Below are positions 1 through 44,024 of a stretch of 44,680 bases of DNA, piece after piece (position 1 is the stretch's first letter; each line of letters begins with the position of its first letter). Source of the stretch: a virus; the IMG/VR virus record IMGVR_UViG_3300033068_000459, positions 1 through 44,680 of that record; one strand, 5' to 3'. Below the pieces are notes generated by a model. It was not told the DNA's origin, did not search any database, and saw only the letters and a program-made list of their open reading frames with translations. The position numbers and the translations under genes were made by a program.

Positions 1-208
1 ACGGCAATGCGCGGGTGTACGGCGATGCGTGGGTGTACGGCAATGCGCGGGTGTACGGCGATGCGTGGGTGTACGGCGATGCGCGGGTGTACGGCAATGC
101 GCGGGTGTACGGCGATGCGCGGGTGTACGGCGATGCGCGGGTGTACGGCAATGCGCGGGTGTACGGCAATGCGCGGGTGTACGGCAATGCGCGGGTGTAC
201 GGCGATGG
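1..208. repeat. 18-bp tandem repeat GTGTACGGC[G/A]ATGCG[C/T]GG (continues from 44515..44680)
   Basis: Read directly. Units are perfect except for two two-state positions, and the last unit degenerates at ~209. Nt 1-72 are identical to nt 44609-44680. Confidence 0.95.
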
Positions 209-443
209 CCTGATCTTCTGGGCTTCAAAAGTCGGCTCTGAAAACGGTACTTTGACCGTCTACAACTCGACAGACAATGCGTTGCTTGTCACGCGGGGAT
301 GTTTCCTCGGGACCGTCGATGAATTCCTTGCGGCTTCAGAAAAGAAGCATGACGAAGATACGCACCTCGAATACCGATTGTTGATTGAGGTTGCTCATTC
401 AAGGATCACACGCGCACGCGCAAAACTGGAGAACACAAAATGA
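1..443 (+). CDS. Hexapeptide-repeat protein, 3' part (same gene as 44359..44680; crosses the window junction in frame)
   Basis: Frame 3 is open from nt 3 (GNARVYGDAW...) to TGA 441-443. The last base of the window (t) plus nt 1-2 (ac) gives TAC, which restores the V-Y-G repeat. About 11 repeat units are followed by a 78-aa non-repeat C-terminus (LIFWASKVGSENGTLTVY...). Confidence 0.75.
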   Translation, partial: GNARVYGDAWVYGNARVYGDAWVYGDARVYGNARVYGDARVYGDARVYGNARVYGNARVYGNARVYGDGLIFWASKVGSENGTLTVYNSTDNALLVTRGCFLGTVDEFLAASEKKHDEDTHLEYRLLIEVAHSRITRARAKLENTK

Positions 444-862: not shown

Positions 863-1222
863 ATGAGCATTGACAATCTGACTTTTGGCGAGCTGAAGCA
901 AATCGCCGCCATGTTTTCCGGCCAGCAGGCCAAATCTTCCGAACACCCGATGGTCGGTCAATACGTGATCGCCCGTTGCTACTCGGCGGGCGTTCATGCT
1001 GGCGAAGTCGTGAGCGTGGATGGCGAAAACGTCATCTTGAAGGATTCTCGCCGACTGTGGTCTTGGAAAGCTCAAGATGGCGTGGCTCTTTCGGGCGTTG
1101 CCCAGCATGGCATCCAAAACCAATCCTGCAAAATTGATACTCAGAATCCGATGATCTATCTGACTGGTGTTTGTGAGTTGATCCCATGCACTCGGACTGC
1201 CAAGGAGAGTATTAATGCCTAA
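863..1222 (+). CDS. Hypothetical protein
   Basis: AGGAGAA lies 7-8 nt upstream of the ATG. 119 aa. The stop overlaps the next start. Confidence 0.7.
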   Translation: MSIDNLTFGELKQIAAMFSGQQAKSSEHPMVGQYVIARCYSAGVHAGEVVSVDGENVILKDSRRLWSWKAQDGVALSGVAQHGIQNQSCKIDTQNPMIYLTGVCELIPCTRTAKESINA

Positions 1223-1496
1223 CAAGGTGTTTCGCTCCGGCGACGGATCCGGCTACGGCGACGGATCCGGCGACGGATCCGGCTACGGCTACGGCGACGG
1301 ATCCGGCTACGGCGACGGATCCGGCGACGGATCCGGCTACGGCTACGGATCCGGCTACGGCGACGGATCCGGCTACGGCGACGGATCCGGCGACGGCGAC
1401 GGATCCGGCGACGGATCCGGCTACGGCGACGGATCCGGCTACGGCTACGGCGACGGATCCGGCTACGGCTACGGCGACGGATCCGGCAAAGGATGA
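1215..1496 (+). CDS. Gly/Asp/Ser/Tyr low-complexity repeat protein, (GDGSGY)n
   Basis: The ATG overlaps the upstream stop region and the stop overlaps the next ATG (ATGA), so it appears translationally coupled on both sides. 93 aa, almost entirely GDGSGY/GYGY units. Confidence 0.55.
   Translation: MPNKVFRSGDGSGYGDGSGDGSGYGYGDGSGYGDGSGDGSGYGYGSGYGDGSGYGDGSGDGDGSGDGSGYGDGSGYGYGDGSGYGYGDGSGKG
1239..1487. repeat. Imperfect tandem array of GGCGACGGATCCGGCTAC-type units
   Basis: Read directly. About 14-15 GGATCC (each containing GATC) occur within ~250 bp. Confidence 0.9.
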
Positions 1497-1963
1497 CCAG
1501 AAAACGCACAGTACGTAGGGTATGGCAGAAGGTAAACCCAATCACTCATGCAGTGGCTGGGGCGTCTATCAAGCCAAGGTCGGAGCTTGACAAACTTCTG
1601 ATGCGCGAGCTTTCCGCCTTGGACGACATGACCCATGGAAAAGCCAGCCTGCAACAGTGGCACGACCTGGCGAACGTGGTTAACCTATGCGAAACGCTTG
1701 CGCATGAGAAAGTCGGGGCGGAGGCTTTGGAATCTTGCCGGACGGCGCAAGATGCGCTGATCGAGGCCGCGAAGAGGTTTCAGGAAACGCAGCGGATGGG
1801 CTTGTCAGGCATCGGGATTCAGGCCCTGCGGGATGTGATTTCGTATCACGACCTACAGCGCTCCAGCATCCCTCGAAGCCAGTACGAGGCGGCTATCCGG
1901 CTGACTGCGGCGCGGGTAAAAAGTGGGTACGCTACGGTTGATCTTGGGGAGATGCTCGGTTAA
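1493..1963 (+). CDS. Hypothetical protein with an arginine-rich N-terminus (MTRKRTVRRVWQK); last gene before the ORF-free region
   Basis: ATGA overlap with the upstream gene. 156 aa. No recognised catalytic motif. Its position at the early/late boundary suggests a regulator, but this is inference only. Confidence 0.7.
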   Translation: MTRKRTVRRVWQKVNPITHAVAGASIKPRSELDKLLMRELSALDDMTHGKASLQQWHDLANVVNLCETLAHEKVGAEALESCRTAQDALIEAAKRFQETQRMGLSGIGIQALRDVISYHDLQRSSIPRSQYEAAIRLTAARVKSGYATVDLGEMLG

Positions 1964-2004
1964 AATTTGCCACGGCCTGAGTAGGATACGCCGTCAATCT
2001 GCTC

Positions 2005-2027
2005 TGACACCCCGGAAAGACGGGGAC
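2005..2027 (+). repeat. Hairpin repeat copy 1: TGACACCCCGGAAAGACGGGGAC
   Basis: 5-bp stem CCCCG/CGGGG with loop GAAAGA. Two further copies lie downstream. Confidence 0.9.
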
Positions 2028-2161
2028 GAATTTGAGACTTTGCTGCCGGGCTGGTCACCTACACCGTAAACACAGCATCCCCCGTATGAGTCGGCTAACG
2101 ACGGGGCGTCAGTCACAGGACATAGTCGCGGGCGAGCGCGCCGCAATGGTTGTGTCAGCGT

Positions 2162-2184
2162 TGACACCTCGGAGAGACGGGGAT
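2162..2184 (+). repeat. Hairpin repeat copy 2: TGACACCTCGGAGAGACGGGGAT
   Basis: Same element. The C>T change in the stem keeps pairing as a U-G wobble. The loop GAGAGA remains all purine. Confidence 0.9.
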
Positions 2185-2328
2185 GAACAGAAAAGGCTGG
2201 ATGACTTCATCCTTCAAGACGGCCTCTAAATGTCTACGAAGGGTGTCACTCGACAGGCGACCGGTCCTGGGCGGGCTGTGCAATTGAGCCATATCACAGA
2301 GTGCGAGCTGCATCGGCCAACAGATCAG

Positions 2329-2351
2329 TGACACCCCGGAAAGACGGGGAC
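2329..2351 (+). repeat. Hairpin repeat copy 3: TGACACCCCGGAAAGACGGGGAC
   Basis: Identical to copy 1. Confidence 0.9.
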
Positions 2352-2863
2352 TATCACATAGGCGGCGGCGTGGAAAGCAGACACGCACAAAACCCGAATG
2401 TACGTGACCTCCAGCGCGTTGAGTAGGGATGGAGATAGCTGGGTTAGCGTCCAGCCCGCCTATTTGATGGACCATGAAGACTTCGGATTGCGCTTACTCC
2501 TAGCATCGGTAAGACGATAGGCAGCTACACAGGTGACGAGTTTGGGGTTGCTCCCAAGCGCGTAGCTGGCGCCAAAAAATCCACCCCCTTAAGCAAGGGG
2601 AAGTCCGAAGCATTGATGTGCCATGAAGCCTCAGACCTAAAAGCGTCCGCACCCTTGACGCACGGTATCCAGTCCGCAGAGTAGGGTAGGTCTGAGACTT
2701 GATGGTGAGCATTTCATGCGATTGGTATAAGATGGACACAAGGTTGCCTCAGTGTCCCAAGGGTTCACGGCCAGAATTGGCAACTAAAGACCGTGAGAAG
2801 CGAAAACCCGGAAGGGTCGTGCGAGATTCCTGATAAACGCCGTCTTTCACCATCAACCCATTC

Positions 2864-3301
2864 GCTGTCTTAGCTCAATTGGTAGAGCACCATACTGTAT
2901 AATGTATGTATGCACTACAACACTATGCGATACCGCCGAAGAATGGCGGAAATGAAACGGATTCTTGGCGGTCAATGCGTGGGGTGCGGGTCTGTAGATT
3001 GTTTGGAGATCCACCACAAAGTACCGGCTGATAAGTCCTTCACTCTTTCCCTTGAATTTGATAAGCCATGGAATGAAATTGAGTTAGAGCTTCGCAAATG
3101 TGAGTTGAGGTGCAAGGCTTGTCATAAGCTTGAACATGCTGCGAAGCATGGATTGGGGATGTATTCCCATCACAAGTGCCGATGTGATGTTTGCAAAAAA
3201 GCATGGAGCATTGCAACCAAGAAATACAAGCAAAAGTCCAAAGAAAAACGGCTAGCCCAAAAAATGGGAGGTCCTTGGTTCGATTCCTAGAGGCAGCACC
3301 A
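2864..3301 (+). tRNA. tRNA gene split by a ~370-nt insertion in the anticodon arm (identity not assignable)
   Basis: 5' half 2864-~2896: acceptor GCTGTCT, TA, D-arm GCTC-AATTGGTA-GAGC, A, then CCATA... 3' half ~3263-3301: ATGG-GAGGTC, T-arm CTTGG-TTCGATT-CCTAG (one T-T mismatch), acceptor AGGCAGC (7/7 pairs with the 5' strand, one G-U), discriminator A, and an encoded CCA. Confidence 0.55.
2910..3290 (+). CDS. HNH endonuclease located inside the split tRNA
   Basis: Motifs CVGCGS...EIHHKVP...CKACHKLEH, plus a C-terminal HHKCRCDVCK zinc-type motif. Visibly AT-richer than the flanks (by eye). The last ~9 codons and the TAG stop lie in the tRNA variable loop and T-arm. Confidence 0.85.
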   Translation: MHYNTMRYRRRMAEMKRILGGQCVGCGSVDCLEIHHKVPADKSFTLSLEFDKPWNEIELELRKCELRCKACHKLEHAAKHGLGMYSHHKCRCDVCKKAWSIATKKYKQKSKEKRLAQKMGGPWFDS

Positions 3302-3380
3302 AATACTAAATTCCCCATTGCAATGATGGGAGTTATAATTCCTAATACGTGCGATTAGACCGCACTATTAAGGGGTTCAA

Positions 3381-3536
3381 ATGAGTGATTTGCAAGGTAC
3401 GGCTAGTGATGCGCGGATGAAAATTCAAATCACCCGGGCTGCAACTGGCGCGGTTGAAGATTACGAATTGATCCTAACTCCGCTTCCAATCGTCCAAGAA
3501 ACCGAGGGCGATCAGCCCGAAAAGGATAGCCAATGA
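3381..3536 (+). CDS. Small hypothetical protein (51 aa)
   Basis: AAGGGG lies upstream of the ATG. The stop overlaps the next ATG (ATGA). Below the cutoff of the ORF track; translated by hand. Confidence 0.45.
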   Translation: MSDLQGTASDARMKIQITRAATGAVEDYELILTPLPIVQETEGDQPEKDSQ

Positions 3537-4114
3537 GCCTCGTAACTCACTCCGTCGCCGCGCAAAATGCCGCAACTGATGCCGTCACCGCGCAGATCGG
3601 CGCATCCGGCAACTTGGCCTTTCGATTGGCTGGGACCATTGGGTCTCCCGGCGCAGTGGCTGCTACCTTGGCGCTGTCGGCTACCGCATTCGGTGCTGCA
3701 ACTGGTGGCGTGGCAACTACCAACGCGATCACCACGAACACCAACGTTGTCGGCAATGCCTCCCCAGTGGCTACGGCAACTCTCCAGACTTCGGGCGGTA
3801 CTCCGGTGATTCACTTTGCTGTGGCGGCTTCTGTGACCACGACCATTACGGGATCGTCTGGCGCGGCAACGATCACGGTTGGCTCTGCCACTGGCTTGGC
3901 TAGTGGCATGAATGTGAGCGGCACGGGCATTGCGTCTGGCGCTTCTATTGTCAACATCACCGGCACCACTGTCACGTTGTCTGCGAACAACACGGGCGCA
4001 GTTTCTGGATCTGGCACTTTCGTGGCTGACATGACGGTCACAAACGGCCTGACATTTGCCCCCGGCGATACCGTGAGCTGCTCAAGTCTGACTTATCGTG
4101 CATTGATCGCATAA
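3533..4114 (+). CDS. Ala/Thr/Gly-rich conserved phage protein, function unknown (possibly virion or fibre associated)
   Basis: 193 aa. The N-terminal pattern AQNAATDAVTAQIGASGNLAF...ATAFGAATGG resembles a recurrent phage family that I cannot name. Confidence 0.6.
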   Translation: MSLVTHSVAAQNAATDAVTAQIGASGNLAFRLAGTIGSPGAVAATLALSATAFGAATGGVATTNAITTNTNVVGNASPVATATLQTSGGTPVIHFAVAASVTTTITGSSGAATITVGSATGLASGMNVSGTGIASGASIVNITGTTVTLSANNTGAVSGSGTFVADMTVTNGLTFAPGDTVSCSSLTYRALIA

Positions 4115-20456: not shown

Positions 20457-22055
20457 ATGACCGTCATTGATTCGCTTGTTGTCAAACTTGGGCTCGACAG
20501 TAAAGACTTCCAGCGGGGGTCTAAAGCCGCCGAGACCTCTTTCACCAAGACGAAACAAGCCGCCCAAAAAACCGGCAAAGATATCGAGTATGCCGGTAAG
20601 CAGGGCGCGGAATTCTTCAATCAGCTTCGCAAATCTGCGATTCAGTTTTTCTCAGTCCTGACCGTTGGCCGAGGGATCGCTGATTTCACCCGTCAAGTTA
20701 TCGGATCAGGCGCTCAGCTTGATCGCATGGCCACCCGCGTGGGCGAATCCGCTAGTCAGCTCTCACGCTGGCAAGGCGCAGTCCGACAATCTGGCGGTTC
20801 CGCAGAAGGCTTTCTAGCCACGATCCAAGGGATTTCCAATCAGTTCACGCAACTGAAGGAAACCGGGGATGCCCCAATCCGCATGCTGCTCCAGCAGCTT
20901 GGAGTATCCGCCGCCGATGCGACCGGGAAGGCAAAACCCGTTTTAGAACTCATTCGAGACATTGGGGACTCGCTAGAGGGAAAGCAGTGGTCTAACGCCG
21001 ACAAGTTCAACAAGCTTCTTGCAGCCGGATTTGATGAGGGCACCATCAATCTGTTGTTGCGCGGCAGGCAAGAGCGTGAAAAGCTGCTGGCCGCTCAAAG
21101 GGAATACAACGACGCTGATGCCAAAGCCGCTCGTATTGCCGAGGAGAAATGGGAGCTTGCCAAGCAGCGCATGGAGAAATTGACACAAACACTTGTGTTC
21201 AAGTTGCTTCCTATTTTTGAAAAAGGAATCGAACTTCTTGAGTCTTTTGGTGAAATTGCCGTCGCAGTTTTTGACAAGAGCATTGAAGGCTGGGGGAAAA
21301 TTTTTGACTGGACTTCCTTGTGGGTGGAAAAGCTGCATGAAGCCTTAGAACTTCTTGGGAAGATCACTGGATTCGACATCCGTGGAACTATCGGAAAAGG
21401 AACTGCAAAGGTTTTGGCTTTTTTTGGCAACAAAGAAGCTCAAGCTGCGCTAGATGCCAATGAAAAAGGAGTGGTTCCTTCAACTGCACCGACTTCAAAG
21501 GCCGAGCCACCAATGTCCTACAACATGGCGAATGAACTTGCCGCCGCTGAAAAGGCGAATGGTCTTCCGGCTGGATTGCTATCCTCCATCGTCAAACAAG
21601 AGACCGGCGGGCGTCAGGCATTTATTGATGACCCGTCAAAGTACCACTATGAAAAGGACGCCAGCGGAAAGCGGAAATCTTCCGCCTTCGGGCCTTTTGG
21701 CATTCTGGAGTCTACCGCCCGAGACCCGGGGTATGGCGTTTCTCCGCTGAAAGACAAGTCCCTCCAAGAACAAACGCGCTTTGCAGCTCAATATGCAGCG
21801 GCTCGCATTCGGGCGGCTGGTAGTGTTGCTGGTGGTTTAGCGGGATATGGCGAGGGTGACAAATATGCCGCTCAGGTTATTGGACGGCTTCCAATGACTG
21901 GCGTGTCAACTGCTGGCGCAGGCCGTGGCAATACAAACCCTTCTAGCGTATCTATTGGCGAGGTCAATGTTTATACTCAAGCGACCGACGCAAATGGTAT
22001 TGCGCGAGACCTCCAGGCGTCAATTGTTCGCCAGTCTGATACAGCCATGAGATAA
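20457..22055 (+). CDS. Tape measure protein with a C-terminal lytic transglycosylase (SLT-like) domain
   Basis: 532 aa with a helical N-terminal two-thirds. The C-terminal motif LLSSIVKQETGG...AFGPFGILEST is SLT-like. Confidence 0.8.
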   Translation: MTVIDSLVVKLGLDSKDFQRGSKAAETSFTKTKQAAQKTGKDIEYAGKQGAEFFNQLRKSAIQFFSVLTVGRGIADFTRQVIGSGAQLDRMATRVGESASQLSRWQGAVRQSGGSAEGFLATIQGISNQFTQLKETGDAPIRMLLQQLGVSAADATGKAKPVLELIRDIGDSLEGKQWSNADKFNKLLAAGFDEGTINLLLRGRQEREKLLAAQREYNDADAKAARIAEEKWELAKQRMEKLTQTLVFKLLPIFEKGIELLESFGEIAVAVFDKSIEGWGKIFDWTSLWVEKLHEALELLGKITGFDIRGTIGKGTAKVLAFFGNKEAQAALDANEKGVVPSTAPTSKAEPPMSYNMANELAAAEKANGLPAGLLSSIVKQETGGRQAFIDDPSKYHYEKDASGKRKSSAFGPFGILESTARDPGYGVSPLKDKSLQEQTRFAAQYAAARIRAAGSVAGGLAGYGEGDKYAAQVIGRLPMTGVSTAGAGRGNTNPSSVSIGEVNVYTQATDANGIARDLQASIVRQSDTAMR

Positions 22056-22057
22056 GC

Positions 22058-22648
22058 ATGTTCGGAATCCCAAATCTACTGAGAAAGGCTCCTGGAGCCA
22101 TTGCAATCACACTGCTGGGGAATAGTGTCAGCCGGTTGATGGATTTTTTGTTTCCGGCTCCTACGTGGGGTGTTTATCGACCTGGGACCACGACGCCCGC
22201 ATTTGAAGTCAGCAGCGTTGCAGAACTTGACCTAGGCGGCGAAACTGCATTGAGTGATTACCCAATAGAAACTGGGTCATTTACGACATACAACAAGGTT
22301 TTGATGCCAAATGTCTTTTCTATCCGTCTCACTCGGGATGGATCTGAAAATCAGCGCGCCGCGTTCTTGAATTGGCTTCAAGCCGTCTTGCAAAGCCTTG
22401 ATTTGTTTGACGTTTTGTGTCCTGAGCGTACATATCGAAATGTGACGTTGAAGTCATATCGAATCACTCGGACCAGCGAATCCGGCGCGGCTATGATTGT
22501 TGCCGATTGCATCTTCCAGGAGGTTCGGCAGATTCCTGCGCTGTACGGAACGTCTCAAATATCGGCTCCAGCAAACCAGCCACCTACGCCGACTGTTCGG
22601 GTTAGCCCGGTGCCGGATCAAACCATCCTGCAAGGCTTCCCGCTCTAA
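22058..22648 (+). CDS. Baseplate/tail protein (196 aa)
   Basis: Assigned by position, immediately after the tape measure gene. Confidence 0.5.
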   Translation: MFGIPNLLRKAPGAIAITLLGNSVSRLMDFLFPAPTWGVYRPGTTTPAFEVSSVAELDLGGETALSDYPIETGSFTTYNKVLMPNVFSIRLTRDGSENQRAAFLNWLQAVLQSLDLFDVLCPERTYRNVTLKSYRITRTSESGAAMIVADCIFQEVRQIPALYGTSQISAPANQPPTPTVRVSPVPDQTILQGFPL

Positions 22649-40300: not shown

Positions 40301-40656
40301 GGGATCACCTTTCTTTCCATTCGTCTATTGGCTTCCACGGTCCGCCATACTTCAATCTTTGCTTGAGCGCCGACAATCAGCCATCTCAACCGCTCTTCTT
40401 CCTCAACCGCAGCGCGCAAGCCTTTGAGTAGAGCCTGATATTCGGTGTCAGCGTAGGCGTCTCGTTCTTGCGCACCGATAGCAGATGTACCAGAAACCTC
40501 GGCGGCTTTCATGCAAAGCGCTTTCTTGCTTTTGCGGTACTCCTCAATATAAATTCTTTCAGCTTTGGCTTTGGCGTAAACCGCAGCGTTATCGCGAATA
40601 AAATCGAGAGCCCGAAACACATTAAATTCGGCATCTTGATTCATAGCCAAGCCCAT
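40297..40656 (-). CDS. Hypothetical protein (119 aa)
   Basis: Part of the operon chain; helical. Confidence 0.55.
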   Translation of the reverse strand: MGLAMNQDAEFNVFRALDFIRDNAAVYAKAKAERIYIEEYRKSKKALCMKAAEVSGTSAIGAQERDAYADTEYQALLKGLRAAVEEEERLRWLIVGAQAKIEVWRTVEANRRMERKVIP

Positions 40657-41165
40657 GTAACTCGTTTTGCAATAGCGTAGGCATACGAATAAACAATGCC
40701 ATGCTTCCGGCCTGCATCGGCCACCTTCATTCCAGAATCAAAATCAGCGCGAAAAGCTAAAATTTTTTCCTTGCTGTACTTATTTGTTCTGCATCGCTCG
40801 CCGCGAATGCTTGTACCGTGATGGACGGTGTCGGACATGTTCCCTCGACGGGTGTCAATGCGAAGGTTTTGCCAACAATTATTTTTCTTGTTCCCATCGT
40901 TGTGACAAACGTCCATTCCTTCTGGAATCAAGGAAATAAAAGCAGATGCAACAAGCCGATGAACAGTGCAATCCTTTTTTTTGGAATTTCGGCAAAGGCT
41001 GACAATCATGTAACCGCTATTGTTGCTGCGCTGACTTAATACCTTGAACGGAGTTGCTCCAAAGGCAGGCGCAACACGCATTACCCGTCCAAGACTAGAA
41101 ACGTGGTATTCCGGCCATGCTGGTATCTCACGCCACTCTTCTTGATGAAATTCAAAAGCGCTCAC
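40641..41165 (-). CDS. HNH homing endonuclease (NUMOD4 + HNH_3-like)
   Basis: EEWREIPAWPEYHVSSLGRV (NUMOD4-like), then TVHRLVASAF...VCHNDGNKKNN. AT-rich relative to its neighbours (by eye). Confidence 0.8.
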   Translation of the reverse strand: MSAFEFHQEEWREIPAWPEYHVSSLGRVMRVAPAFGATPFKVLSQRSNNSGYMIVSLCRNSKKKDCTVHRLVASAFISLIPEGMDVCHNDGNKKNNCWQNLRIDTRRGNMSDTVHHGTSIRGERCRTNKYSKEKILAFRADFDSGMKVADAGRKHGIVYSYAYAIAKRVTWAWL

Positions 41166-43150: not shown

Positions 43151-43329
43151 CCATGCAAACCACATACCTTCTGCTAAAAATCGAGCACTCCGCTCCTATT
43201 CCAGACCTAACCGACAAGGTAGCAGGCCGCGCATACACGATGGACAAGATCGAGGATGTGACGGCCGCGATCATCACTCCAGAAGCGGCGCATAGTCTTG
43301 AAATGGATTCCAAGGTGGATGTGAAATGA
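43147..43329 (+). CDS. Hypothetical protein (60 aa)
   Basis: ATGA overlaps on both sides. Confidence 0.5.
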   Translation: MTMQTTYLLLKIEHSAPIPDLTDKVAGRAYTMDKIEDVTAAIITPEAAHSLEMDSKVDVK

Positions 43330-44024
43330 GCAAGATTTACCACACCAGAGAATCCATTCTTTCCCGTCTAGAGAAAGGACCCGCTCAGTTTGCTGAGTGG
43401 GCGACAAGTCGAAATGCAAACCACGGCTCACGTGTGCAAGCCAGAAAGATAGTGGATGATCTTGTGCTTGATGGTTTGATTCGATTTGTTCACATTGGTC
43501 GATTCCCTTACTACATCCTTGGTACGCCGGAGGCACTGCGCCATGCCGAGCTGATGCAGATCGAAGAATCCAGCAAGGAAAGCCCTTGCGGTTGCATTCT
43601 TTGGACTGGGTTTATCAACAAGAACACGGGTCCGATGATTCGACCGGTTGCAGCAGATGCGCCAAAGTCTGTGCGTCGAACTGTGTGGCAAATGAATCGC
43701 GGTCCGCTTGGAGCAAATGACATCATCCGCATGAGTTGCCGAGACGATGCCTGCATATGCCTGGATCACATGGTAAAGACCCGAAGAAACACGCACCAGA
43801 AGGGAAGGCCAAAGAGCTACGTTACCCGCGTTCGCATCACCGAGGCTATCCGAAAACGCAGGAAGCTGACCATCGAGCAGGCCAACGAAATCCGCATAAG
43901 CCCTGAGAAGAATAGAGTGCTTGCGGAGAAGTATGGAGTTTCGCACTCAAACATAAGCGCTATCCGCCGAGGCCGCACGCTGAGAGACATGACGCCATCG
44001 CCTTTTGCCGGTCTGATGGGCTAG
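43326..44024 (+). CDS. DNA-binding protein: wHTH-like N-terminus, degenerate HNH_3-like core, C-terminal HTH
   Basis: CGCILWTGFINKNTGPMIR...RRTVWQMNRGPLG...MSCRDDACICLDHM resembles the phage HNH_3/AP2-type scaffold. The C-terminus LTIEQANEIR...AEKYGVSHSNISAIRRGRT is HTH-like. Confidence 0.55.
   Translation: MSKIYHTRESILSRLEKGPAQFAEWATSRNANHGSRVQARKIVDDLVLDGLIRFVHIGRFPYYILGTPEALRHAELMQIEESSKESPCGCILWTGFINKNTGPMIRPVAADAPKSVRRTVWQMNRGPLGANDIIRMSCRDDACICLDHMVKTRRNTHQKGRPKSYVTRVRITEAIRKRRKLTIEQANEIRISPEKNRVLAEKYGVSHSNISAIRRGRTLRDMTPSPFAGLMG

What the first reader, a model, noticed from the sequence alone, without database searches (positions are those of the whole stretch)
1964..2863. 0.9-kb ORF-free, helix-rich segment next to a tRNA: candidate large structured phage RNA (GOLLD/ROOL-like class or something new)
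Seen: elsewhere the genome is packed, with most genes joined by ATGA/TGATG overlaps and gaps under 125 nt. This 900-nt stretch has only short ORFs with no RBS and junk-like composition on both strands.

It is full of stable local structures:
- 2080-2106: CCCCGT/ACGGGG.
- 2199-2212: GGATG-ACTT-CATCC.
- 2585-2600: CCCCTT-AAGC-AAGGGG.
- 2765-2796: TCACGG/CCGTGA.
- 2806-2817: ACCC-GGAA-GGGT, a GNRA loop.
- One long helix: CCATGAAGCCTCAGACC (2621-2637) pairs with GGTCTGAGACTTGATGG (2689-2705) at 15 of 17 positions.

A possible long-range 9-bp pairing is GGCGGGCTG 2270-2278 with CAGCCCGCC 2452-2460. That could be chance at this length.

Short motifs recur:
- GAGTAGG x3 (1979, 2421, 2679). It contains AGUA, as in loop-E / sarcin-ricin motifs.
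- CCATGAAG x2 (2472, 2621).
- TGAGACTT x2 (2033, 2693).
- CACGGCC x2 and ACGCCGTC x2.

Established: the giant ornate RNAs GOLLD and ROOL are typically phage- or prophage-borne and often lie adjacent to tRNA genes.

Inference: this is either a member of such a class or a new large RNA. It sits exactly at the early/late boundary.
Basis: partly seen in the sequence, partly recalled or inferred. Interest (0 to 1): 0.8.

Follow-up and report, generated by a model that had tools for sequence, protein, structure and literature searches.

The report
Phage array of small tRNA-like RNAs
The 0.9-kb gene-free stretch is most likely not one giant RNA but a string of small folded RNA modules, three of which belong to widespread phage RNA families that I could not find described anywhere, lying in front of a tRNA gene split by a homing-endonuclease gene.

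Summary
The ORF-free stretch 1964-2863 is real. It matches no Rfam 15 family: not GOLLD, ROOL, group I intron, RNase P or tmRNA. It does not fold better than shuffled sequence (z = -1.18).

Comparison with about 350 fetched loci shows a mosaic of independent modules, all on the + strand:
- A 22-nt hairpin, UGACA-N5-GARAGA-N5'-A, occurs three times (2005, 2162, 2329). The identical 22-mer is in more than 119 viral contigs and in 32 genomes from many phyla, and its stem covaries. It lies 1-9 nt before tRNA 5' ends (13 cases) and exactly 8 nt before tRNA-like stems (6 cases).
- A pseudoknot of about 55 nt (2194-2245) has about 50 homologues, including N4-like Xanthomonas and Stenotrophomonas phages, with strong covariation.
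- A tRNA-shaped four-way junction (2351-2470) has at least 83 homologues with strong covariation. The window's copy is divergent.
- 2471-2863 holds further hairpin or cloverleaf units with no homologues found.

Close relatives carry other module sets or none, so a single conserved large fold is unlikely.

The adjacent "tRNA" is a tRNA-Thr(UGU) homologue whose anticodon arm is replaced by 375 nt carrying an HNH gene.

Best reading (inferred): one precursor transcript, cut by the host's tRNA-processing enzymes. What the RNAs do is unknown.

The parts
1938..1966 (+). Sigma-70-like promoter candidate (TTGATC-17-TAAAAT) at the end of the upstream gene; possible start of the array transcript
   Evidence: Consensus scan. 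It was the only promoter-like site found in 1700-3600, where 1.6 are expected by chance, so the evidence is weak.
2005..2026 (+). 22-nt hairpin motif, copy 1: UGACA CCCCG GAAAGA CGGGG A
   Evidence: The identical 22-mer is in more than 119 IMG/VR contigs and in 32 GTDB genomes.
2027..2161 (+). Unit A, including the CCCCCGU...ACGGGG hairpin (2080-2106)
   Evidence: 2043-2108 is 79% identical to L134 7893-7959, which lies in a similar ORF-poor island. No covariation test was possible.
2162..2183 (+). 22-nt hairpin motif, copy 2: UGACA CCUCG GAGAGA CGGGG A (one U.G pair)
   Evidence: The same variant occurs in L123 and L179.
2194..2245 (+). H-type pseudoknot core. Helix A is 2194-2197 with 2222-2225; helix B is 2208-2215 with 2238-2245. 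The loops are invariant: UGGAUGACUU, AAGACG, UAAAUGUCYAYGAA.
   Evidence: 92% identical over 53 nt to unannotated gaps (one hit lies under a 'hypothetical protein') in N4-like phages; in the two inspected, RiverRider and Pokken, the gap lies within the tRNA cluster. About 50 homologues. Covariation score 0.433 against 0.139 for shuffles, reached by 0 of 500 shuffles.
2246..2328 (+). Variable arm of unit B, between the pseudoknot and hairpin copy 3
   Evidence: About 85-90% identical to L004, L005, L007, L010 and L013 across 2183-2377. It is absent or different in other pseudoknot-bearing loci.
2329..2350 (+). 22-nt hairpin motif, copy 3 (exact consensus). It lies 8 nt before the acceptor-like stem of unit C.
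2351..2470 (+). Unit C, a tRNA-shaped four-way junction and a divergent member of its family:
- P1: 2351-2365 with 2456-2470
- 2-nt linker: 2366-2367
- P2: 2368-2372 with 2382-2386
- Variable domain: 2387-2437
- P4: 2438-2442 with 2451-2455
   Evidence: The family has at least 83 distinct members. Covariation score 0.408 against 0.137 for shuffles, reached by 0 of 500 shuffles; P2 and P4 are 99.6% paired. The window copy keeps all the helices and the GCGG/CCGC core but has different loops.
2471..2619 (+). Unit D, predicted to be a cloverleaf-like four-way junction closed by CCAUGAAGACUUCGGA / UCCGAAGCAUUGAUG. It includes the CCCCUU-AAGC-AAGGGG hairpin (2585-2600).
   Evidence: MFE fold. Only the closing-helix sequence recurs in relatives L142 and L146. 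There is no homologue for the interior.
2620..2707 (+). Unit E, a long hairpin (19-nt arms 2621-2639 / 2687-2705). Its interior shares a 19-nt stretch with unit C (2410-2428 against 2668-2686).
   Evidence: No homologue was found in the loci held at that point, about 237.
2708..2863 (+). Linker domain with small hairpins (2765-2796, 2806-2817). It ends in CACCAUCAAC (2848-2857), 6 nt before the tRNA 5' end.
   Evidence: Read from the sequence. A CCAUCAAC-type element precedes the tRNA 5' end in relatives L010, L142 and L148.
2864..2891 (+). tRNA 5' part (positions 1-28: acceptor strand, D arm, start of the anticodon stem)
   Evidence: Aligned to the intact tRNA-Thr(UGU) genes of relatives L142 and L148.
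2892..3266 (+). 375-nt insertion replacing the anticodon arm. It carries an HNH endonuclease ORF (2910-3290) that reads on into the T arm.
   Evidence: PHROG phrog_4234, E = 4e-16. No group I intron hit. ARAGORN calls a tRNA here only with thresholds lowered to 70% and a 345-nt 'intron'.
3267..3301 (+). tRNA 3' part (positions 42-76: variable loop, T arm, acceptor strand, CCA)

Best explanation
Shown: 1964-2863 is a co-oriented array of at least six small structured-RNA modules placed in front of a tRNA-Thr-type gene that is split by an HNH gene. Three kinds of module are conserved far beyond this phage and are supported by compensatory base changes:
1. A 22-nt hairpin, UGACA-N5-GARAGA-N5'-A, present three times, which punctuates the array.
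2. An H-type pseudoknot of about 55 nt.
3. A tRNA-shaped four-way junction. It has an acceptor-like stem of 7 bp or more, a 2-nt linker and a 5-bp 'D-like' hairpin. A variable domain takes the place of the anticodon arm. A 5-bp 'T-like' hairpin then abuts the 3' acceptor strand.

The modules are shuffled between phages. Module boundaries coincide with the hairpins and with CCAUCA / UGAUGG closing helices.

Inferred:
- The array and the tRNA are transcribed together on the + strand by host RNA polymerase, possibly from 1938-1966.
- The precursor is cut into separate small RNAs by the host's tRNA-maturation machinery. RNase P would cut at the 5' ends of the acceptor and acceptor-like stems, and 3' nucleases would trim the other ends.
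- The 22-nt hairpin acts in the RNA as a leader or spacer element marking the 5' boundary of each tRNA-shaped unit.

What the released RNAs do is not known. The likeliest guess is decoys for, or binders of, tRNA-recognising host or defence factors.
For: The region is modular, not one unit:
- Homology to other loci breaks exactly at module borders.
- Relatives sharing the upstream gene carry different module sets. L142/L143 have unit C, another unit and an intact tRNA. L144 has the pseudoknot, other units and a tRNA. L148 has the pseudoknot, one hairpin, other units and a tRNA. In L147 gene calls are contiguous, with only a short match to the tRNA 5' part.

The 22-nt hairpin is a real RNA structure:
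- A search with no pairing filter found 23 copies whose stem is not CCCCG/CGGGG. Of these, 22 form 5 of 5 pairs, using 11 or more different stems.
- The only non-Watson-Crick stem pairs in the 22 fully paired copies are G.U as read on the + strand.
- No position outside the 22-mer is conserved.

The hairpin is tied to tRNA-shaped RNAs:
- All 23 tRNAs within 200 nt of a hairpin are co-oriented with it.
- 13 tRNAs start 1-9 nt after it, whereas upstream tRNAs lie 12-117 nt away with no fixed spacing.
- Six unit-C members start exactly 8 nt after it.

Covariation of the two larger motifs:
- Pseudoknot: helix A is 97% paired. Pair 3/34 reads AU 14, UA 6, CG 2, GC 2; pair 5/32 reads AU 13, GC 12. 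Helix B has four pairs with changes on both sides. No shuffle of 500 reaches the observed score, and slid controls score 0.12 or less against 0.433.
- Unit C family: the inner P1 pairs use all four Watson-Crick types at 94-100% pairing, and P2 and P4 are 99.6% paired. 22 of 26 nearby tRNAs are co-oriented.

Context: the window encodes no RNA polymerase, reverse transcriptase or transposase among the roughly 40 proteins screened.
Against: - There are no expression or end-mapping data, so co-transcription and processing are inferred only from geometry.
- RNase P involvement is untested. Many hairpin copies sit upstream of ordinary protein genes, 10-120 nt before the start codon. A role specific to tRNA-shaped RNAs cannot explain these.
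- A generic spacer hairpin would not need an invariant loop and flanks, which point to a specific, unidentified binding partner.
- The window's unit C has non-consensus loops, and units D, E and F have no homologues, so parts of the array may be decaying.
- The region's folding energy is not exceptional.
Confidence: 0.55

Rival explanations
1. The 22-nt hairpin is a protein-binding or RNA-polymerase-modifying RNA signal, comparable to a lambda boxB/nut or HK022 put site. On this reading it lets transcription run through long untranslated, hairpin-rich arrays and into downstream genes, rather than serving as a processing mark.
For: - A 5-bp stem of free sequence carries an invariant purine-rich loop (GAAAGA, GAGAGA, GGAAGA). 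From my own knowledge this resembles boxB loops (GAAAA, GAAGA).
- It acts in the RNA and on one strand only.
- It lies at the start of transcription units: in front of protein genes and in a divergent promoter region.
- The same hexaloop type closes the 'D-like' arm of unit C, which suggests one shared binding partner.
Against: - There are three copies within 350 nt here and two within 300 nt in L052, and the spacing to tRNA 5' ends is tight at 1-9 nt. That is unlike known nut or put sites.
- No N- or Q-like protein was found next to it.
- Letter-for-letter conservation across phages of many phyla does not fit phage-specific N-boxB pairs.
Confidence: 0.17
2. The hairpins and closing helices work in DNA, as recombination or cassette junctions, targets of homing endonucleases, or origin or packaging signals. 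On this reading the 'modules' are mobile cassettes rather than functional RNAs.
For: - Mosaic breakpoints coincide with the hairpins.
- Turnover between close relatives is very fast.
- HNH genes lie in and near these islands.
- A 22-nt identity would give phage recombinases a microhomology, as proposed for the PeSL cassettes of T4-type phages (my own knowledge).
Against: - The wobble pairs are G.U only on the + strand; on the other strand they would be C.A mismatches.
- Orientation relative to tRNAs is strict: 23 of 23 and 25 of 25 for the pseudoknot.
- The pseudoknot and unit C show RNA-type covariation, including helices with unpaired conserved loops.
- A recombination role could exist alongside an RNA role.
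Confidence: 0.1
3. One or more modules are new self-cleaving ribozymes that cut the precursor themselves. The candidates are the pseudoknot core with its invariant loops, or the hairpin together with the helix that follows it. This would parallel the HDV-like 'theta' ribozymes next to tRNAs in gut phages.
For: - The pseudoknot has about 30 invariant unpaired nucleotides around two covarying helices, a pattern typical of ribozymes and riboswitches.
- It sits next to tRNAs.
- The hairpin lies right at future 5' ends.
Against: - No known ribozyme model matches.
- My attempts to map hammerhead, HDV-like or pistol topologies onto the pseudoknot failed.
- 22 nt with no conserved partner is too small for any known self-cleaving fold.
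Confidence: 0.08
4. The whole 0.9 kb is one large ornate RNA, either of the GOLLD/ROOL class or of a new class.
For: - It is ORF-free, next to a tRNA and in a phage.
- Other phages have ORF-poor islands of 0.5-0.9 kb containing some of the same modules.
- A weak long-range complementarity, 2339-2356 with 2831-2848, brackets units C to F.
Against: - There is no GOLLD or ROOL hit at E<=10.
- The modules occur alone or in other orders elsewhere.
- The nearest relatives have different sets or none.
- MFE z = -1.18.
- No homologue of 2490-2850 was found.
Confidence: 0.06
5. The stretch is mostly decaying remnants of tRNA genes and mobile insertions, with no present function.
For: - The adjacent tRNA is disrupted.
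- The window's unit C has off-consensus loops.
- Units D to F have no homologues.
- Content differs between close relatives.
Against: - Three module types are under clear purifying selection for structure across dozens to hundreds of unrelated phages.
- Two of the three hairpin copies in the window are identical to the consensus.
Confidence: 0.05

Closest known systems
Small stable RNAs embedded in phage tRNA gene clusters (T4 species 1 and 2 RNAs, rnaC/rnaD; from my own knowledge)
   Same: Non-tRNA structured RNAs of about 100-150 nt lie inside or beside a phage tRNA cluster, co-oriented with the tRNAs. They are presumably released from a common precursor by tRNA-processing enzymes, and their function is unknown.
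   Different: I found no sequence relationship. Here there are several distinct families, a punctuating 22-nt hairpin, and a distribution across phages of many bacterial phyla.
Bacterial and phage Y RNAs of the YrlA type (PMC4201824), and the tRNA-like domain of tmRNA
   Same: The RNA has a long terminal stem formed by its 5' and 3' ends and a tRNA-like core with D-like and T-like arms. In tmRNA a large domain replaces the anticodon arm.
   Different: Unit C has non-canonical loops (GAWGGA, and an 8-nt UAUCAAGC loop) and no encoded CCA. Neither Rfam nor ARAGORN detects it. No Ro60 gene was seen among the proteins screened. The arm order is tRNA-like, not permuted as described for YrlA.
GOLLD and ROOL giant ornate RNAs (bioRxiv 10.1101/2024.12.08.627333, title and abstract only; Rfam; phage and tRNA association from my own knowledge)
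   Same: They are carried by phages or prophages, often lie next to tRNA genes, are ORF-free, and their function is unknown.
   Different: No covariance-model match was found. The region is modular and mosaic rather than one conserved fold of 600-800 nt.
HDV-like 'theta' ribozymes flanking tRNAs in gut phages (from my own knowledge)
   Same: A small conserved RNA element directly abuts phage tRNA genes and is thought to define tRNA ends.
   Different: Theta ribozymes lie 3' of tRNAs and have the HDV double-pseudoknot fold. The 22-nt hairpin lies 5' of tRNAs and is far too small. The pseudoknot here lacks a P3 hairpin.
PeSL (promoter-early stem-loop) cassette junctions of T4-type phages, and lambda boxB/nut hairpins (from my own knowledge)
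   Same: A short conserved stem-loop recurs at gene and module boundaries and coincides with mosaic breakpoints. The boxB stem is 5 bp with a purine-rich loop.
   Different: PeSL and boxB sequences are specific to one phage group. This 22-mer is identical in phages of Proteobacteria, Bacteroidota, Firmicutes, Cyanobacteria, Spirochaetes and Patescibacteria. No -10 box follows it.

Membership tests
GOLLD (Rfam) / ROOL (Rfam) | A match to the family covariance model | tested here: not met
   cmscan of the whole window at the gathering threshold gave 0 hits. For 1700-3500 at E<=10 the only hit was an unrelated plastid motif on the - strand at 3213-3299.
Group I intron (for 2892-3266 and for the region) | A match to the Rfam intron model, i.e. 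the conserved P3-P9 core | tested here: not met
   No hit at E<=10. The ORF fills almost the whole insertion.
Canonical tRNA gene (the neighbour at 2864-3301) | A complete cloverleaf with an anticodon arm, detected by ARAGORN or Rfam RF00005 | tested here: not met
   ARAGORN at default settings and with introns allowed found 0 genes, and Rfam found none. Positions 29-41 are missing or replaced.
Canonical tRNA gene (the neighbour at 2864-3301) | Homology of both halves to an intact tRNA in relatives | tested here: met
   2864-2891 and 3267-3301 align to positions 1-28 and 42-76 of the tRNA-Thr(UGU) of L142 and L148.
tRNA-like fold (unit C family) | A terminal stem of 7 bp or more, a 2-nt linker, a 5' hairpin, a central domain, and a 3' hairpin directly followed by the 3' strand of the terminal stem | tested here: met
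   All three helices covary in the family alignment A2. The window copy keeps every helix.
tRNA-like fold (unit C family) | Canonical D-loop and T-loop nucleotides (G18 G19; T54 psi55 C56) and a 3' CCA | tested here: not met
   The family loops are GAWGGA and UAUCAAGC (they contain GG and UC, but the T-like loop has 8 nt). The window's loops are GAAAGCAGA and GUUAGCGU. No conserved CCA follows P1.
tmRNA | A tRNA-Ala-like domain plus a tag reading frame, as detected by ARAGORN or Rfam | tested here: not met
Y RNA / YrlA | A neighbouring Ro60 (TROVE) gene and canonical T and D arms | tested here: inconclusive
   There was no Rfam hit of any kind. No TROVE protein was found among the roughly 40 window proteins screened, but not every ORF was screened.
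CRISPR array or solitary CRISPR repeats | Repeats of 24-48 nt separated by spacers of similar length | tested here: not met
   The three 22-nt repeats are spaced 157 and 167 nt apart, and the spacers are conserved structured modules.
Sigma-70 promoter (reading TGACA as a -35 box) | A -10 hexamer 16-18 nt downstream of the -35 box | tested here: not met
   There is no information content beyond weak C, C/U, A/U at +1 to +3 after the 22-mer. tRNAs start 1-9 nt after it.
Known pseudoknot riboswitches and small ribozymes (preQ1, SAM-II, guanidine-III, pistol, hatchet, twister, HDV-like) | A match to the family model | tested here: not met
   cmscan of 2150-2365 at E<=10 returned only a chance snoRNA hit.

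The most novel reading that the evidence does not exclude
The window holds members of three structured-RNA classes that appear undescribed and are common in phages:
- A 22-nt hairpin conserved letter for letter in phages of at least eight bacterial phyla. It marks the 5' boundary of tRNAs, tRNA-like RNAs and some genes.
- A compact pseudoknot with about 30 invariant loop nucleotides.
- A tRNA-shaped RNA whose anticodon arm is replaced by a free cargo domain.

Together they would define a general phage system of 'tRNA-island' small RNAs. The hairpin would be a universal signal read by a conserved host machine such as RNase P or RNA polymerase, or by a mobile phage factor.
Probability: 0.45. Interest if true: 0.8.

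Novelty: new variant of a known kind. Interest (0 to 1): 0.66.

Why it matters
- Why phages carry tRNA genes, and what lies between them, is still an open question (PMC10264068). This window shows that the 'empty' DNA beside a phage tRNA is built from recurring RNA modules with strong covariation.
- None of the modules is in Rfam 15 or in any searchable paper.
- A 22-nt RNA hairpin identical in phages of Proteobacteria, Bacteroidota, Firmicutes, Cyanobacteria, Spirochaetes and Patescibacteria implies a very conserved reader.
- The tRNA-shaped family with a swappable central domain is a natural 'tRNA scaffold' and a candidate decoy for tRNA-targeting defences.
- Cultured carriers exist, so the question can be tested directly:
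  - FoX2 and FoX5 for the hairpin.
  - Pokken, Paxi, Piffle, RiverRider and PB119 for the pseudoknot.
  - Bordetella phage PHB04 for unit C, though this is only a partial match to the 3' third of the query.

Tried and rejected
- **Rfam at three scopes**, on 17 related loci and on a canonical unit C. Only tRNAs and one unrelated Burkholderiales-2 hit were found.
- **ARAGORN for tRNA and tmRNA**, including introns and lowered thresholds. Only the split tRNA emerged, plus obvious false positives.
- **Protein-coding reading.** There is no ORF above 106 aa, and homologous cores covary as RNA.
- **CRISPR-like reading of the three repeats.** Rejected on spacing.
- **TGACA as a -35 box.** Rejected, because no -10 box follows.
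- **N4-type hairpin promoter.** Rejected, because the window has no virion RNA polymerase (largest ORF 604 aa) and the element also occurs in phages that are not N4-like, such as FoX2.
- **Hand-mapping of hammerhead, HDV-like, pistol and guanidine-III topologies** onto the pseudoknot. None fits.
- **CsrA-site and Ro60-site readings** of the GGA hexaloop and the CUUGAUGG helices. These are resemblances recalled from memory only and were not pursued.
- **Literature searches.** Full-text searches for the motif sequences found nothing relevant. Topical searches turned up no description. No supplements were held for the IMG/VR structured-RNA catalogue or the YrlA paper, so prior listing there cannot be excluded.
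- **The search for related loci with the upstream protein** found nothing. Relatives were reached instead through the search for homologous proteins.
- **E. coli genomes** lack the hairpin.
- **Orientation of the hairpin relative to crude ORF calls** was uninformative in GC-rich contigs. Orientation relative to tRNAs was decisive.
Full report
**1. What is at the coordinates**

Window 1964-2863 follows the stop codon of a 156-aa gene (1493-1963). It holds no ORF above 106 aa on either strand. The long inverted repeat 2621-2639 / 2687-2705 has 19-nt arms at 89% complementarity.

Folded as one RNA, the region is no more stable than shuffled sequence. The z-score is -1.18 on the + strand and -1.96 on the - strand, so "helix-rich" is not in itself beyond chance.

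All three are on the + strand, and the motif occurs nowhere else in the 44.7 kb.

**2. Known families are excluded**

- Rfam 15 gives no hit for the whole window at gathering thresholds.
- Nothing relevant appears at E<=10 for 1700-3500 or for 2150-2365. So the region is not GOLLD, ROOL, a group I intron, RNase P RNA, tmRNA, or any known riboswitch or ribozyme.
- ARAGORN finds no tRNA or tmRNA in the window.

**3. The "tRNA" next door is split**

- Bases 2864-2891 align to positions 1-28 of an intact tRNA-Thr(UGU) found at the same place in relatives (L142, L148). Bases 3267-3301 align to positions 42-76.
- The anticodon arm is replaced by 375 nt. The insertion is filled by an HNH endonuclease ORF (2910-3290; phrog_4234, E = 4e-16) that reads on into the T arm.
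- No group I intron model matches.
- ARAGORN calls a "tRNA-Tyr with a 345-nt intron" only at 70% thresholds, with a poor anticodon stem.
- I treat it as a tRNA gene disrupted by a homing-endonuclease gene. An unknown splicing route is not excluded.

**4. Module 1: the 22-nt hairpin**

Distribution:
The flanks are unrelated, and GC content and genome sizes vary widely, from 4 to 619 kb.
- It is also in 32 GTDB species genomes: Beta- and Gammaproteobacteria, Bacteroidales, Cyanobacteria, Eubacteriales, Treponema, Patescibacteria/Saccharibacteria, Armatimonadota and others.
- It is absent from 5,426 E. coli genomes.
- Among cultured phages it is essentially limited to Xanthomonas phages FoX2 and FoX5.

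Structure:
- Searching the loci then held (1.78 Mb) with TGACA-N5-GARAGA-N5-A and no pairing filter gave 146 distinct copies.
- Of the 23 whose stem is not CCCCG/CGGGG, 22 form 5 of 5 pairs and one forms 4 of 5. They use at least 11 different stems.
- The only non-Watson-Crick stem pairs in the 22 fully paired copies are G.U as read on the + strand. This points to an RNA hairpin on that strand.
- Nothing outside the 22 nt is conserved except a weak C, C/U, A/U at +1 to +3. That rules out a sigma-70 promoter reading of TGACA.

Position:
- All 23 tRNAs within 200 nt are co-oriented with the hairpin.
- 13 tRNAs start 1-9 nt after it. tRNAs upstream of it lie 12-117 nt away with no fixed spacing.
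- Six members of the tRNA-like unit C family, including the window's, start exactly 8 nt after it.
- Other copies lie 10-120 nt before protein-gene start codons. One family sits in a divergent promoter region, co-oriented with the downstream gene.

**5. Module 2: the pseudoknot (2194-2245)**

- The only blastn match of the region to cultured phages is 2190-2244. It is 91-93% identical to gaps that are mostly unannotated in N4-like Schitoviridae: Xanthomonas RiverRider and PB119, and Stenotrophomonas Pokken, Paxi and Piffle. In the two regions I inspected, RiverRider and Pokken, the match lies inside the tRNA cluster.
- Pattern scans of IMG/VR and of metagenomes gave about 50 distinct homologues.
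- The consensus is NNNC-UGGAUGACUU-[N5-10 UUC]-AAGACG-GNNN-N-UAAAUGUCYAYGAA-[N5-10].
- On a 27-sequence ungapped alignment, helix A (window 2194-2197 with 2222-2225) is 97% paired. Pair 3/34 reads AU 14, UA 6, CG 2, GC 2; pair 5/32 reads AU 13, GC 12, CG 1, UA 1.
- Helix B (2208-2215 with 2238-2245) has four pairs with changes on both sides.
- The covariation score is 0.433 against 0.139 for shuffles, reached by 0 of 500 shuffles. Slid controls score 0.12 or less.
- The two helices cross, so this is an H-type pseudoknot with about 30 invariant loop nucleotides.
- All 25 nearby tRNAs are co-oriented with the pseudoknot. Downstream genes are varied (SSB twice, HNH, excisionase-like and others), so it is not a leader for one gene family.
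- In 22 of the 57 parsed loci a hairpin-motif variant follows 58-153 nt downstream. This is the arrangement in the window (unit B, 2184-2350).

**6. Module 3: the tRNA-shaped unit C (2351-2470)**

- Homologues were first seen right after hairpins in L097, L134, L156, L017 and L004.
- 83 distinct units carry both the 5' signature (GCGGCRG, a stem, a GAWGGA hexaloop, the return stem) and the 3' signature, 55-200 nt apart.
- I joined the two conserved halves with AAAA and aligned 50 sequences. The inner pairs of the terminal stem P1 are 94-100% paired and use all four Watson-Crick types; pair 12/62, for example, reads UA 17, AU 15, GC 10, CG 8.
- P2 is 99.6% paired, with changes on both sides in all five pairs. 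P4 is 99.6% paired.
- The covariation score is 0.408 against 0.137 for shuffles, reached by 0 of 500 shuffles.
- The topology is that of a tRNA. There is a terminal stem of 7 bp or more, a 2-nt linker and a 5-bp 5' hairpin whose loop contains GG. A variable domain takes the place of the anticodon arm; in L255 that domain is itself nearly a whole tRNA. A 5-bp 3' hairpin follows, with an 8-nt loop UAUCAAGC containing UC, and it is directly followed by the 3' strand of the terminal stem.
- No CCA is encoded.
- 22 of 26 tRNAs within 1.5 kb are co-oriented.
- The family is not in Rfam. No held paper contains its signature sequences. The only cultured-phage hit is a partial match (37 nt, the 3' end of the query) to an unannotated spot in Bordetella phage PHB04.
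- The window's copy keeps every helix and the GCGG/CCGC core. Both loops differ from the consensus (GAAAGCAGA and GUUAGCGU), so it is a divergent member.

**7. The remaining 390 nt**

- 2471-2619 (unit D) is predicted to be a four-way junction, and 2620-2707 (unit E) a long hairpin. Both are closed by helices of the CCAUGAAG... / ...CUUGAUGG type.
- 2708-2863 is a linker with small hairpins. It ends in CACCAUCAAC, 6 nt before the tRNA.
- Only the closing-helix sequences and the CCAUCAAC element recur in relatives. The interiors have no homologue in the loci held at that point, about 237. These parts therefore rest on single-sequence folding alone.
- Unit A (2027-2161) has one homologue, in L134.

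**8. Why not one large RNA**

Homology to other loci begins and ends at module borders, for example 2183-2377 with L004. Phages that share the upstream gene (129 homologues) differ in what follows it:
- L142/L143 (96% protein identity): unit C, a different unit and an intact tRNA. They have no hairpins, no unit A and no pseudoknot.
- L144: pseudoknot, other units, tRNA.
- L148: pseudoknot, one hairpin, other units, tRNA.
- L146: other units only.
- L147: gene calls are contiguous, and only a short match to the tRNA 5' part remains.

A single RNA with one global fold would not tolerate this much variation. A single primary transcript remains likely. Everything is on the + strand between + strand genes. 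A weak promoter-like site lies at 1938-1966. The only terminator-like hairpins on the + strand in 1700-3600 are a weak one inside unit C (2440-2458) and one after the tRNA (3314-3330). The roughly 40 screened window proteins include no RNA polymerase, reverse transcriptase or transposase.

**9. Mechanism**

Shown: a mosaic, co-oriented array of conserved structured-RNA modules next to a tRNA, with a hairpin that sits at a fixed short distance 5' of tRNA and tRNA-like acceptor stems.

Inferred:
- The array and the tRNA are co-transcribed.
- The host's tRNA-maturation enzymes release the units. RNase P recognises acceptor and T-arm stacks of the kind unit C presents (established biochemistry, not tested here).
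- The hairpin serves as a leader or boundary element.

The hairpin's invariant loop and flanks, and its presence before ordinary genes, show that it must also be read by some specific, still unknown partner. For that reason I keep an antitermination or protein-binding role as the main rival.

What the released RNAs do is open. Decoys for tRNA-binding host or defence factors are the most natural guess given their shape and location (compare PMC10264068 on phage tRNAs and defence).

**10. Novelty and limits**

- The three module families are absent from Rfam 15. I found no paper containing their sequences.
- I could not check the supplementary catalogues of large phage structured-RNA screens. 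An anonymous prior listing is therefore possible.
- All collection scans used exact patterns and were capped, so counts are lower bounds and the alignments are biased towards conserved cores.
- There are no expression data of any kind.

Noticed in passing
window 2864-3301: The tRNA-Thr-type gene has its anticodon arm (positions 29-41) replaced by 375 nt encoding an HNH endonuclease. The ORF ends inside the T arm. Close relatives (L142, L144, L148) have the intact gene without the HNH ORF. It could be a pseudogene, an unknown kind of intron, or a tRNA-mRNA chimera.
   Followed up: partly
window 7-213, ORF 15-443: At the contig start there are roughly ten tandem 18-nt repeats, open in several frames. 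The 142-aa ORF matches the YdcK beta-solenoid repeat (PF18836, E = 9e-24). Relatives L142-L144 match with fewer repeat copies.
   Followed up: no
window 1215-1496: A 93-aa ORF made almost entirely of GDGSGYGY-type repeats. It has no PHROG hit. The segment is not aligned in the closest relative L142.
   Followed up: no
L011 11620-11738; also L014, L019, L020, L021: Directly after the 22-nt hairpin lies a tRNA-like gene of about 119 nt. Rfam tRNA scores it 48 bits across an insertion of about 45 nt, and ARAGORN does not call it. This is another interrupted or atypical tRNA in these islands.
   Followed up: no
L255 about 2230-2395: A unit C scaffold whose variable central domain is an almost complete canonical tRNA sequence.
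   Followed up: no
alignment A1, columns 13 and 47 (window 2204 and 2238): In the pseudoknot, A13 with G47 (the majority) changes to G13 with C47 or U47 in several sequences (L012, L190, L195, L226, L233). This suggests a tertiary or alternative pair that competes with the C24-G47 pair of helix B.
   Followed up: partly
L140 (Xanthomonas phage FoX2, MT161382) 21705-22450: The annotated 29-35-aa 'hypothetical proteins' gp29-gp31 lie in an ORF-poor island of about 750 nt that contains the 22-nt hairpin, a closed hairpin unit and a 99-nt 'tRNA-Leu'. They are probably mis-called ORFs over non-coding RNA.
   Followed up: partly
window 3314-3345: The hairpin CCCAUUGCAAUGAUGGG is followed by GTTATAAT, just after the tRNA and before the first late-region gene (3381). 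It is conserved in position in L142 and L144 and may be a terminator or promoter junction. Its UGAUGG could also pair with the CCAUCA at 2850-2855.
   Followed up: no
window 40641-41165 (-) and 43326-44024 (+): Two further HNH-type endonuclease genes, making three in a 44.7-kb genome.
   Followed up: no
L017 7569-7642 (-): A strong match to the Rfam Burkholderiales-2 RNA (98.9 bits), about 1.6 kb from the pseudoknot and unit C island of that contig.
   Followed up: no
loci L004, L007, L010, L134, L142, L146, L156 (downstream of unit C): Two more recurring small elements: the hairpin UGAAUGCGCAGGCUGAUGCGC, and GCCGG-AGAUCAGCA-CCGGC followed by CACCAUCAAC. The second directly precedes a tRNA or the pseudoknot.
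   Followed up: partly
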